A DNA stretch of 64,000 bases from Escherichia coli (GTDB lineage Bacteria > Pseudomonadota > Gammaproteobacteria > Enterobacterales > Enterobacteriaceae). Shown in pieces: positions 9,001 to 12,000 of the stretch. The stretch lies in assembly GCF_016903815.1 (NCBI RefSeq), contig NZ_CP069973.1; one strand, 5' to 3'. Within the stretch, counting starts at the first letter, position 1, and every line of letters begins with the position of its first letter. Position numbers: made by a program.

Positions 9001-12000
9001 GCTATCAGGCTTATCAGCCGGTTACGGCACCGGCTGGCCGCTCTTATGTGGACCAGAGTAAAAACGAATATCACATCAGTCTGACGGGCGGTACTGCGCC
9101 GGGGACACAGCTTGACCGCCAGTTACAGGATGCGCTCGAAAAATACGAGCGGGATAAACGTGCGCGCGCCCGTGCCAGCATGATGCATGACGGTTAAGGA
9201 GGTGACGAAAAATGATGCTCGCGTTAGGTATGTTTGTTTTTATGCGCCAGACGCTGCCACACCAGACCATGCAGCGTGAATCAGATTATCGCTGGCCGTC
9301 AAATTCCCGTATCGGTAAACGGGATGCCTACCAGTTTCTCGGTGTTGGCGAGGAAAACATCACGCTTGCCGGCGTGCTTTATCCCGAACTGACCGGCGGC
9401 AAGCTGACGATGACCACGCTCAGGCTGATGGCAGAGGAAGGCCGGGCGTGGCCGTTGCTGGATGGCACTGGCATGATTTACGGTATGTATGTCATCAGCA
9501 GGGTGAGTGAAACAGGGAGTATTTTCTTTGCAGACGGCACACCCCGGAAAATTGATTTTACGCTGTCACTCACCCGCGTTGATGAATCACTGGCCGCGCT
9601 TTATGGTGATATCGGTAAACAGGCGGAATCGCTCATCGGTAAGGCTGGCAGTCTGGCGACCAGATTCACAGGTATGACGGGGGCGGGATAATGCTGGATG
9701 CACTGACATTTGATGCAGGCAGTACGCTGACGCCGGATTACATGCTGATGCTCGACAGCAGGGATATTACCGGCAATATCAGCGGCCGTCTGATGAGCAT
9801 GACCCTGACGGATAACCGGGGCTTTGAGGCTGACCAGCTTGATATTGAACTGAACGATGCCGACGGGCAGGTCGGGCTGCCGGTTCGTGGCGCTGTCCTG
9901 ACGGTGTATATCGGCTGGAAAGGTTTTGCCCTGGTATGCAAAGGGAAATTCACCGTTGATGAGGTAGAACACCGGGGCGCGCCGGATGTGGTCACCATCC
10001 GGGCCCGGAGTGCAGATTTTCGTGGCACGCTCAATTCCCGCCGTGAAGGCTCCTGGCATGACACCACGCTCGGTGCGATTGTTGAGGCGATAGCCTCCCG
10101 TAACAGGCTGGAAGCCAGTGTCGCTCCGTCACTGGCCGGAATTAAAATCCCGCACATCGACCAGTCGCAGGAGTCTGATGCAAAATTCCTGACCCGCCTT
10201 GCTGAACGCAACGGCGGTGAGGTGTCGGTAAAAATGGGAAAACTGTTGTTTCTCAAAGCGGGGCAGGGGGTGACGTCCAGCGGTAAAAAAATCCCGCAGG
10301 TCACCATAACCCGCAGCGACGGCGACCGCCATCATTTTGCGATTGCTGACCGTGGAGCCTATACCGGCGTAACGGCAAAGTGGTTACACACCAAAGACCC
10401 GAAGCCACAAAAGCAGAAGGTAAAACTGAAACGAAAAAAGAAAGAGAAACACCTGCGCGCACTGGAGCACCCCAAAGCGAAACCAGTCACGCAGAAGAAA
10501 GCGCCAAAAGTACCGGAAGCGCGCGAAGGTGAATACATGGCCGGTGAGGCTGACAACGTTTTTGCCCTGACCACGGTATATGCCACGAAAGCACAGGCCA
10601 TGCGCGCCGCTCAGGCGAAGTGGGATAAACTGCAACGGGGTGTAGCGGAGTTCTCCATCAGTCTGGCTACTGGTCGGGCAGATATTTACACGGAAACGCC
10701 GGTCAAAGTGTCAGGCTTTAAGCGCGTCATAGACGAGCAGGACTGGACAATCACTAAGGTGACACATTTTCTGAATAATAGCGGCTTCACGACGTCCCTG
10801 GAGCTTGAGGTCAGGCTTTCTGATGTGGAGTACGAAACCGAAGATGATGAGTGATGTGTTTTATTTTATCTGTTTGTTTTATAAGGATAAATTAACTAAA
10901 ATGGCAACATCAACAAAACCGGAAGAGGTGCTCGCGATGTTTCATTGTCCTTTATGCCAGCATGCCGCACATGCGCGTACAAGCCGCTATATCACTGACA
11001 CGACAAAAGAGCGTTATCACCAGTGTCAGAACGTGAATTGCAGCGCCACGTTCATCACTTATGAGTCGGTACAGCGATACATCGTGAAGCCGGGAGAAGT
11101 CCACGCCGTAAGACCGCACCCGTTGCCGTCAGGGCAGCAAATTATGTGGATGTAATTACAATCAGGAAGCCCCTCAGTCGAGGGGCTTTTTTTGTCGATG
11201 TGGTCAATATGTGGACGTGACCAGAAATAAATCCTTTTATTTCATGTGATTAGATATCAAAAAATGTCACCAATAACTGACATTGCGGTGTTTCTCCAGA
11301 TGTGGCCCATCTGAGGCCGTGTTGGTGCGCAGCTCGAAGGCTACGTCGAGTCTGTTTTGGCAGTCACCTTAAAGTATAGATAGCTGACAAAAAAGGCTCT
11401 CGTGCTAAAAAAGGCCCCACTTTCGTGGAGCCTTTATTGTACGCTTTTTACTGTACGATTTCAGTCAAATCTAATTACATAGATTGAGTGAAGGTACGAG
11501 TAATAACGTCCTGCTGCTGTTCTTTAGTCAGCGAGTTGAAACGTACTGCGTAGCCAGATACACGGATGGTCAGCTGCGGATATTTTTCCGGGTTTTCCAT
11601 CGCGTCGAGCAGCATTTCACGGTTCATCACGTTAACGTTCAGGTGCTGACCACCTTCGATGGATGCTTCGTGGTGGAAGTAACCATCCATCAGACCAGCC
11701 AGGTTGGTCTTACGAACTTCGTCGTCTTTACCCAGTGCGTTCGGAACGATAGAGAAGGTGTAGGAGATACCATCTTTAGCGTAAGCAAACGGCAGTTTAG
11801 CAACGGAAGTCAGAGAGGCTACTGCACCTTTCTGGTCACGACCGTGCATCGGGTTAGCACCCGGTCCGAATGGCGCGCCAGCACGACGACCGTCTGGGGT
11901 GTTACCAGTTTTCTTACCATACACAACGTTAGAAGTGATGGTCAGAACAGACTGAGTCGGGATAGCGTCACGGTAGGTGTGCAGTTTCTGAATTTTCTTC

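What the first reader, a model, noticed from the sequence alone, without database searches (positions are those of the whole stretch)
10937..11155. Ogr late activator is intact with its Cys4 zinc-finger
The 72-aa frame carries CPLC ... CQNVNC. This is the activator needed for late promoters such as the one expected before FI. Its integrity suggests late gene expression is still possible on induction.
Basis: partly seen in the sequence, partly recalled or inferred. Interest (0 to 1): 0.2.

Follow-up and report, generated by a model that had tools for sequence, protein, structure and literature searches.

The report
Intact ogr gene of P2-like prophage
This is the ordinary, fully intact ogr gene of a P2-like prophage in E. 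coli; its protein is identical to phage P2's zinc-finger activator of late (tail, head and lysis) genes, so it is a well-known gene correctly recognised and not a discovery.

Summary
Window 10937..11155 (+) is a 72-codon gene. Its product is 72/72 identical to phage P2 Ogr, with Cys at 4, 7, 30 and 35 (CX2CX22CX4C). It matches Pfam Ogr_Delta at E 1e-21 and an NCBIfam equivalog at E 5e-53. The five nucleotide differences from P2 are all synonymous.

The gene's own promoter hexamers, Shine-Dalgarno sequence and terminator are conserved with P2. So are the P_F late promoter (4460..4528) and the whole FI-FII-E-T-U-D operon upstream.

The gene is the last one of a P2-like prophage whose attR core (11270..11282) lies in the first codons of pflA, next to pflB.

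The identification is therefore correct and already known. About 38% of complete E. coli genomes carry ogr.

The inference that late genes can still be expressed on induction is only partly supported:
- Two thirds of the prophage lie outside the window.
- E. coli K-12 keeps a 71/72-identical OgrK in a 0.6-kb remnant.
- The closest genome has a truncated replication gene A.
- P2-type prophages are not SOS-inducible. Relatives show no Tum homologue and no LexA box.

Side notes: a Shedu defence gene sits in the Z/fun hotspot, and integration replaces the start codon of pflA.

The parts
4460..4485 (+). Ogr (activator) binding site of late promoter P_F: GTTGT-N11-ACCA-G-CC-A-GG, containing TGT(4462-4464)-N12-CCA(4477-4479)
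   Evidence: It aligns with the annotated P2 activator-binding site 17555..17583. It has the same TGT-N12-CCA half-sites as P2 P_F and P_O/P_P. It is the only exact match to the pattern in 64 kb, where 0.08 are expected. The same promoter variant is 98.3% identical in isolated phages vB_EcoM-12474II-V.
4515..4528 (+). P_F -10 region (GAAAAT, 4515..4520) and the position equivalent to the P2 F-operon transcription start (CAC, 4526..4528)
   Evidence: Alignment to P2, whose record annotates the transcription start at 17626..17628. The dyad centre lies about 56 nt upstream, against about 57 nt in P2.
4552..10854 (+). F operon: FI 4552..5742, FII 5755..6273, E 6330..6605 (E+E' to about 6757, slippery TTTTTTG near 6585), T 6750..9197, U 9212..9691, D 9691..10854
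   Evidence: All are the same length as the P2 proteins, 98.0-99.4% identical, with no internal stops. The E frameshift site is conserved. PGAP annotation of relatives agrees.
10874..10902 (+). ogr's own sigma-70 promoter: -35 TTGTTT (10874..10879), 17-nt spacer, -10 TAAAAT (10897..10902)
   Evidence: It aligns with the -35 and -10 signals annotated in the P2 record (23973.., 23996..24002). Both hexamers are unchanged and the spacer has one change. The generic consensus scan does not call it, because the -35 matches only 3/6.
10921..10928 (+). Shine-Dalgarno sequence GGAAGAGG, 8 nt before the ATG
   Evidence: Read directly from the sequence; identical in P2.
10937..11155 (+). ogr coding sequence, 72 codons plus TAA
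   Evidence: It has 5 synonymous and 0 non-synonymous differences from P2.
11169..11193 (+). Rho-independent terminator of ogr and the F operon (GCCCCUC-AGUC-GAGGGGC followed by U7)
   Evidence: It aligns with the P2 terminator annotated at 24265..24288. The fold gives -20.2 kcal/mol, z -5.8. On the minus strand the hairpin has no U tract.
11195..11244 (+). attP-derived P arm: two Int arm-type sites (ATGTGGTCA / ATGTGGACG, 11197..11219) and the first half of the IHF site. Similarity to P2 ends at 11244.
11270..11282 (.). attR core ACCAATAACTGAC, shared with attB and attL. On the minus strand it reads (AT)G TCA GTT ATT GGT of pflA.
   Evidence: Three-way alignment of K-12 attB, attL of the relative and attR of the window.

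Best explanation
Window 10937..11155 is the functional ogr gene of a P2-like (Peduovirus) prophage integrated at the 5' end of pflA in E. coli. Shown here: the 72-aa product is identical to P2 Ogr. It carries the CX2CX22CX4C zinc-ribbon motif. The gene has P2's own weak sigma-70 promoter, Shine-Dalgarno sequence and terminator. It follows gene D, so it can also be read through from P_F. A P2-type activator site sits upstream of FI. Inferred from work on P2: once made, Ogr binds one zinc through the four cysteines. It then binds the imperfect dyad centred about 55 nt upstream of the late promoters P_P, P_O, P_V and P_F and contacts the C-terminal domain of the RNA polymerase alpha subunit. This turns on the head, lysis and tail operons. 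Read-through from P_F then amplifies ogr itself. In a lysogen this has no consequence until the prophage is derepressed and replicates, or until a P4-type satellite supplies epsilon and delta.
For: The protein is 72/72 identical to P2 Ogr. It matches Pfam PF04606 at E 1.1e-21 and NCBIfam equivalog NF007241 at E 4.6e-53. Cys4, 7, 30 and 35 are invariant in P2 Ogr, 186 B and both halves of P4 delta. All five nucleotide differences from P2 are synonymous (binomial P 4e-4), which indicates purifying selection. The promoter hexamers, Shine-Dalgarno sequence and terminator are conserved with the annotated P2 features. The P_F activator site is present and unique in the window, and the same variant occurs in isolated, viable phages. 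The FI-D operon is intact. A 99.35% relative has a complete 33.6-kb prophage with int, C, cox, B, A, cos and all late genes, and its P_O/P_P site is identical to P2's. On the mechanism, PMC3931495 describes four late promoters with TGT-N12-ACA and Ogr as a zinc protein with CX2CX22CX4C. PMC3152322 describes binding to inverted repeats at about -55 and a required contact with the RNA polymerase alpha subunit.
Against: Nothing argues against the identity of the gene. The limits concern function in this particular strain. No expression or zinc-binding data can be obtained here. The prophage upstream of gene I is outside the window, and the exact genome is not in the collection. The closest genome's prophage is a recombinant with a truncated A gene, so Ogr could be intact yet without consequence. 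The P_V activator site could not be recognised confidently in the relative.
Confidence: 0.95

Rival explanations
1. The gene is intact but functionally stranded. The prophage in this strain is defective somewhere outside the window, so ogr is a relic like K-12 ogrK and late expression cannot lead to phage production.
For: K-12 keeps a 71/72-identical OgrK in a 629-bp remnant. ogr is present in 2073/5426 genomes, many of which presumably hold remnants. The closest genome (99.6%) has the same right end joined to a different left end at yegR/yegS, with a truncated replication gene A. The differences from relatives are clustered, which shows recombination between P2-like elements.
Against: Within the window every gene from H to ogr is full length and 98-100% identical to P2, apart from the mosaic tail fibre, and P_F is intact. 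Another close relative (99.35%) carries a complete prophage between pflA and pflB. All substitutions in ogr are synonymous.
Confidence: 0.25
2. ogr is retained mainly because it serves something other than its own prophage. Examples are trans-activation of the late promoters of a P4-like satellite, or control of host or defence genes.
For: P2 Ogr and P4 delta belong to one family, and the two elements cross-activate each other (PMC9942202 and its reference to Halling and Calendar 1990). ogr of a P2-like Salmonella prophage was transcribed in all lysogenic conditions tested (PMC7067206). A Shedu defence gene lies just upstream of P_F.
Against: The window has no satellite and no second Ogr/Delta gene. 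The only good Ogr-type site is P_F. Three terminator-like hairpins separate Shedu from P_F. The classical role explains everything seen.
Confidence: 0.04
3. It is a chance open reading frame or a mis-called frame, not a gene.
For: None. The only related point is that the ORF lister also reports a longer 116-aa TTG frame and a 55-aa antisense frame.
Against: E-values of 1e-21 to 5e-53 and 100% identity to a biochemically studied protein.
Confidence: 0

Closest known systems
Bacteriophage P2 Ogr (NP_046785, NC_001895 24036..24254)
   Same: The 72-aa protein is identical. The position after gene D is the same. The promoter hexamers, terminator and Int P-arm sites are the same. The flanking DNA is 97% identical up to the IHF site.
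   Different: There are five synonymous substitutions. Past window 11244 the att core differs: this phage uses the start of pflA rather than P2 locI. The integrase of the relative is only 53% identical to P2 Int and the repressor 48% identical to P2 C, so it is heteroimmune.
E. coli K-12 OgrK (b2082, cryptic prophage PR-X)
   Same: It is 71/72 identical (A57V). PGAP gives the window's gene the same name.
   Different: OgrK sits in a 629-bp remnant next to cyaR and yegR, with only a fragment of gene D. Here ogr closes an intact tail operon.
Coliphage 186 B protein
   Same: It is 63% identical, has the same length, the same four cysteines and the same position after gene D and before attP.
   Different: The 186 record annotates CI operators on pB and an SOS-controlled Tum antirepressor. 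No Tum homologue and no LexA box is found in relatives of this prophage.
Satellite phage P4 delta
   Same: It belongs to the same Ogr/Delta zinc-finger family, with the cysteines conserved in both halves. It activates the same P2 late promoters (PMC9942202).
   Different: It is 166 aa long, a tandem duplication of the domain, and 31-39% identical. It is encoded by the satellite, not the helper.
NrdR N-terminal zinc ribbon (PF22811; PDB 7p37)
   Same: There is weak sequence similarity over the Cys4 ribbon: Pfam E 0.0068, below the cutoff, and PDB E 0.039.
   Different: It is a different family and function, a repressor with an ATP-cone. No solved structure of any Ogr/Delta protein was found by sequence search.

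Membership tests
Ogr/Delta zinc-finger late activators (Pfam PF04606) | Profile match above the curated threshold | tested here: met
   PF04606 gives 76.9 bits against a cutoff of 26.3, E 1.1e-21, covering profile positions 1-47/47. NCBIfam equivalog NF007241 gives 177.6 bits against a cutoff of 116.
Ogr/Delta zinc-finger late activators (Pfam PF04606) | Four cysteines spaced CX2CX22CX4C | tested here: met
   Cys4, Cys7, Cys30 and Cys35 are present. They are invariant in the alignment with 186 B and both halves of P4 delta. The motif is as described in PMC3931495.
Ogr/Delta zinc-finger late activators (Pfam PF04606) | Binds one zinc ion | not testable with these tools
   This is known for P2 Ogr (Lee and Christie 1990, cited in PMC3931495). 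The protein here has the identical sequence.
P2 Ogr orthologue | Small gene directly downstream of tail gene D, last gene before attP/attR, with its own promoter and a shared terminator | tested here: met
   D ends at 10854, ogr spans 10937..11155, the terminator spans 11169..11193 and the att core spans 11270..11282.
P2 Ogr orthologue | Cognate late promoters with a TGT-N12-ACA-type dyad about 55 nt upstream of the start | tested here: met
   P_F at 4460..4485 has TGT-N12-CCA, as in P2 P_F and P_O/P_P. P_O/P_P in the relative is identical to P2's. P_V lies outside the window and was not resolved in the relative.
P2 Ogr orthologue | Activation through contact with the RNA polymerase alpha C-terminal domain (rpoA109-sensitive; residue Tyr42 is the site of the ogr52 suppressor) | not testable with these tools
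   Tyr42, the wild-type residue, is present. The role of the alpha subunit is described in PMC3152322. The detail on ogr52 and rpoA109 comes from my own knowledge.
Functional (plaque-forming) P2-like prophage | Complete int-C-cox-B-A-cos-late operons in the same genome | tested here: inconclusive
   Only I'-H-G-FI-FII-E-T-U-D-ogr lie in the window, and all are intact. One relative is complete. The closest relative has a truncated A gene. The source genome is not in the collection.

The most novel reading that the evidence does not exclude
The most novel reading concerns where ogr ends up after integration, not ogr itself. The att core lies in codons 1-5 of pflA. The native pflA promoter, ribosome-binding site and ATG therefore stay on the ogr side (window 11283..11474, minus strand). 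There they encode only an 8-codon stub and point antisense into ogr, through a hairpin that lacks a U tract in that direction. Host transcription could in this way dampen basal ogr expression in the lysogen. Meanwhile pflA itself (seen in relatives) loses its ATG and is expressed as a protein carrying 19 extra phage-encoded N-terminal residues, probably from the phage C-int transcript.
Probability: 0.1. Interest if true: 0.35.

Novelty: already known. Interest (0 to 1): 0.05.

Why it matters
It matters little in itself. ogr is one of the best-studied phage late activators, and PGAP already annotates this exact protein (WP_000468308) in hundreds of genomes. Its practical value is as an annotation anchor: it marks the right end (attR) of a P2-like prophage and confirms that the tail operon in the window has its regulator and promoter. 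Whether the strain can release phage, or act as a helper for P4-like satellites, depends on sequence outside the window.

Tried and rejected
1. I looked for the exact source genome among 5426 complete E. coli genomes. None is identical; the best match is 99.6%. The upstream prophage could therefore only be read in relatives.
2. The generic promoter/terminator scan did not report the ogr promoter or terminator. I relied instead on alignment to the annotated P2 features and on folding.
3. I tried to identify P_V in the relative by alignment to P2. The region is not homologous because orf30 has been replaced, and no convincing dyad was found.
4. I searched for a solved structure. The only hit is a marginal one to the NrdR zinc ribbon. 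I did not run structure prediction or the large homologue searches, because 100% identity to P2 Ogr already settles the question.
5. The Rfam scan of window 1..14000 returned nothing.
6. The classical P2 papers (Christie and Calendar 2016; Birkeland 1991; Julien and Calendar 1995) are not held in the library. Statements about the replication requirement, non-inducibility and ogr52/rpoA109 therefore rest on my own knowledge.
7. I rejected the 116-aa TTG frame (10805..11155) and the in-frame ATG at 10901. The ATG overlaps the -10 box, so it lies upstream of the ogr transcript start.
8. The second pattern hit, at 32041 (one mismatch), lies among the host genes downstream of the prophage (not individually annotated here) and is taken as chance.

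Full report
OBSERVATION. Window 10937..11155 (+) is an ATG-to-TAA frame of 72 codons. Its translation carries CPLC at residues 4-7 and CQNVNC at residues 30-35, so the cysteines are at 4, 7, 30 and 35. The longer 116-aa TTG frame listed by the ORF tool (10805..11155) overlaps the end of the preceding gene and is a mechanical artefact. The in-frame ATG at 10901 overlaps the -10 box of the gene's own promoter.

IDENTITY. The protein matches Pfam PF04606 (Ogr/Delta-like zinc finger) at E 1.1e-21, 76.9 bits against a cutoff of 26.3. It matches NCBIfam equivalog NF007241 end to end at E 4.6e-53.
- tblastn against 50,697 phage records finds 235 records. Seventy-one are at 99% identity or more, and these include several records named P2.
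- Compared with the reference P2 genome (NC_001895, ogr 24036..24254), the protein is 72/72 identical.
- The DNA differs at five positions, all synonymous. With 44.7 synonymous and 171.3 non-synonymous sites, that pattern has a binomial probability of 4e-4 under neutrality, so the gene is under purifying selection.
- The four cysteines are invariant in an alignment with 186 B (63% identical) and with both halves of P4 delta.

EXPRESSION SIGNALS. The 97%-identical alignment with P2 runs from gene D to window 11244.
- The P2 record annotates a -35 and a -10 signal for ogr. The window keeps both hexamers: TTGTTT at 10874..10879 and TAAAAT at 10897..10902, 17 nt apart, with one change in the spacer.
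- It also keeps the Shine-Dalgarno sequence GGAAGAGG at 10921..10928.
- The annotated terminator for the ogr transcript and F operon is conserved at 11169..11193. It folds at -20.2 kcal/mol (z -5.8) and is followed by U7.
- The generic consensus scan missed both the promoter and the terminator, so this evidence rests on homology to annotated P2 features.

CONTEXT. Window 1..11282 is the right end of a P2-like prophage.
- Gene order: the end of I, H (195..2219), G (2221..2748), a Shedu/SduA nuclease (3039..4265; PADLOC E 1e-219) in the Z/fun hotspot, then FI, FII, E/E+E', T, U, D and ogr.
- FI, FII, T, U and D have exactly the P2 lengths, are 98.0-99.4% identical and have no internal stops. E and its TTTTTTG slippery site are conserved. 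H is 72% identical, a mosaic tail fibre.
- There is only one Ogr-like gene in the 64 kb.

THE LATE PROMOTER BEFORE FI. The P2 record annotates the P_F activator-binding site (17555..17583) and the transcription start (17626..17628).
- The window aligns to these. GTTGT-N11-ACCA-G-CC-A-GG lies at 4460..4485, with TGT(4462-4464)-N12-CCA(4477-4479). GAAAAT lies at 4515..4520, the start-equivalent CAC at 4526..4528, GGAG at 4540 and the FI ATG at 4552.
- P2's own P_F and P_O/P_P sites also read TGT-N12-CCA. The window's site therefore keeps the same half-sites, although the spacer differs.
- A pattern built from these sites matches exactly once in the whole window, where 0.08 matches are expected. 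This count is partly circular, because the window's own site helped define the pattern.
- The same P_F variant is 98.3% identical in the isolated phages vB_EcoM-12474II-V, so it is compatible with viability.
- In a close relative the pattern also finds P_O/P_P, which is 100% identical to P2. P_V could not be recognised there.

WHERE THE PROPHAGE SITS. Similarity to P2 ends at 11244, inside the IHF site of attP. The two Int arm-type sites are retained (11197..11219).
- Comparison with the K-12 pflA-pflB region and with attL of a relative defines a 13-bp core, ACCAATAACTGAC, at window 11270..11282. On the minus strand this reads (AT)G TCA GTT ATT GGT, the first codons of pflA.
- From 11283 onward the window is host DNA: the pflA promoter region and then pflB at 11475..13757 (minus strand).
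- D-ogr lies next to pflB in 402 of 5426 complete E. coli genomes.

WHAT CANNOT BE SEEN. The window begins inside gene I. P_V, P_O/P_P, the head and lysis genes, cos and the early region (int, C, cox, B, A) therefore lie outside it.
- No genome in the collection is identical; the best is 99.6%.
- Strain 7/2 is 99.35% identical over 14.4 kb. Its differences cluster in FII-E-T and in the first 500 nt. It has a complete 33.6-kb prophage between pflA and pflB, with A at full length and cos present.
- The closest genome, JMK_KBN3987, has the same right end but a left end next to yegR/yegS. It carries P2-type int, C and cox and a truncated A gene. This indicates recombination between two P2-like prophages.
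- The state of the prophage in the source strain is therefore open.

MECHANISM. Shown here: an identical Ogr protein, its promoter and terminator, and a cognate P_F with an intact operon. The rest is inferred from published work.
- P2 has four late promoters with a TGT-N12-ACA-type element, and Ogr is a zinc protein with CX2CX22CX4C (PMC3931495).
- Ogr binds inverted repeats centred near -55 and must contact the RNA polymerase alpha subunit (PMC3152322).
- P4 delta activates the same promoters and P4 epsilon derepresses the prophage (PMC9942202).
- ogr of a P2-like Salmonella prophage was transcribed in every lysogenic condition tested (PMC7067206). This fits the view that Ogr alone does not suffice for late expression.
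- From my own knowledge, P2 late transcription additionally requires phage DNA replication (genes A and B), and P2 lysogens are not SOS-inducible. Consistent with this, the relative's repressor is a P2 C-type protein (48% identical). No homologue of 186 Tum and no CTGT-N8-ACAG LexA box is present in the relative's prophage or in the window's prophage part. The 186 record, by contrast, annotates both.

The identification and the cysteine check are correct. The inference about late expression on induction is only partly supported.
- An intact ogr is common, in 2073/5426 genomes.
- It survives in remnants: K-12 OgrK is 71/72 identical within a 629-bp relic.
- The remainder of the prophage is unseen.
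- 'Induction' in the SOS sense does not apply to this phage type.

COMPARISON AND NOVELTY. This is P2 Ogr itself and is already known. PGAP names the same protein ogrK (WP_000468308) in relatives. No Ogr/Delta structure is in the PDB by sequence search; the only similarity is marginal, to the NrdR zinc ribbon. Interest is low.

SIDE OBSERVATIONS.
- Because the att core lies in pflA codons 1-5, attR keeps the native pflA promoter and ATG. They now encode the 8-codon stub MSVIGDIF* and point antisense toward ogr. The ogr terminator hairpin has no U tract in that direction.
- At attL in the relative, the pflA ATG becomes AAG and an in-frame phage ATG lies 20 codons upstream. PGAP accordingly calls a 265-aa PflA, against 246 aa in K-12.
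- Whether either change has a physiological effect is untested.

Noticed in passing
window 11257..11474 (minus strand); L002 7620..7713: The prophage att core lies in pflA codons 1-5. The native pflA promoter and ATG remain at attR as an 8-codon stub (MSVIGDIF*) that points antisense into ogr. At attL in relatives the pflA ATG becomes AAG, and a phage-borne ATG 20 codons upstream gives a 265-aa PflA, against 246 aa in K-12. The extended gene starts 31 nt after the int stop codon.
   Followed up: partly
window 3039..4265 (+): A Shedu (SduA, DUF4263) anti-phage nuclease occupies the Z/fun hotspot between tail-fibre assembly gene G and P_F (PADLOC E 1.4e-219). Three terminator-like hairpins (4292..4447) separate it from P_F. 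The relative's prophage also carries an HTH protein, a reverse transcriptase (retron-like) and an FRG-domain gene in the tin/old hotspot.
   Followed up: partly
L007 (NZ_CP180393.1 2342500-2381000): The genome closest to the window (99.6%) has the same ogr-pflB right end. Its left end lies next to yegR/yegS, with P2-type int, C and cox and a truncated replication gene A. This implies recombination, probably a large inversion, between two P2-like prophages.
   Followed up: partly
window 1..500 and 6000..9200: Nucleotide differences from the two closest relatives are clustered in I/H and in FII-E-T and are absent elsewhere. This shows mosaic exchange among P2-like prophages. The tail-fibre protein H is only 72% identical to P2 H.
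   Followed up: partly
window 11195..11244: The Int arm-type sites and half of the IHF site are 97% conserved with P2, although the core and the integrase (53% identical in the relative) differ. The first 60 residues of the relative's integrase, the arm-binding part, are much more conserved than the rest. This agrees with PMC3448106.
   Followed up: partly
window 32041..32066 (+): There is a one-mismatch match to the Ogr-site pattern among the host genes downstream of the prophage. It is most likely chance.
   Followed up: no
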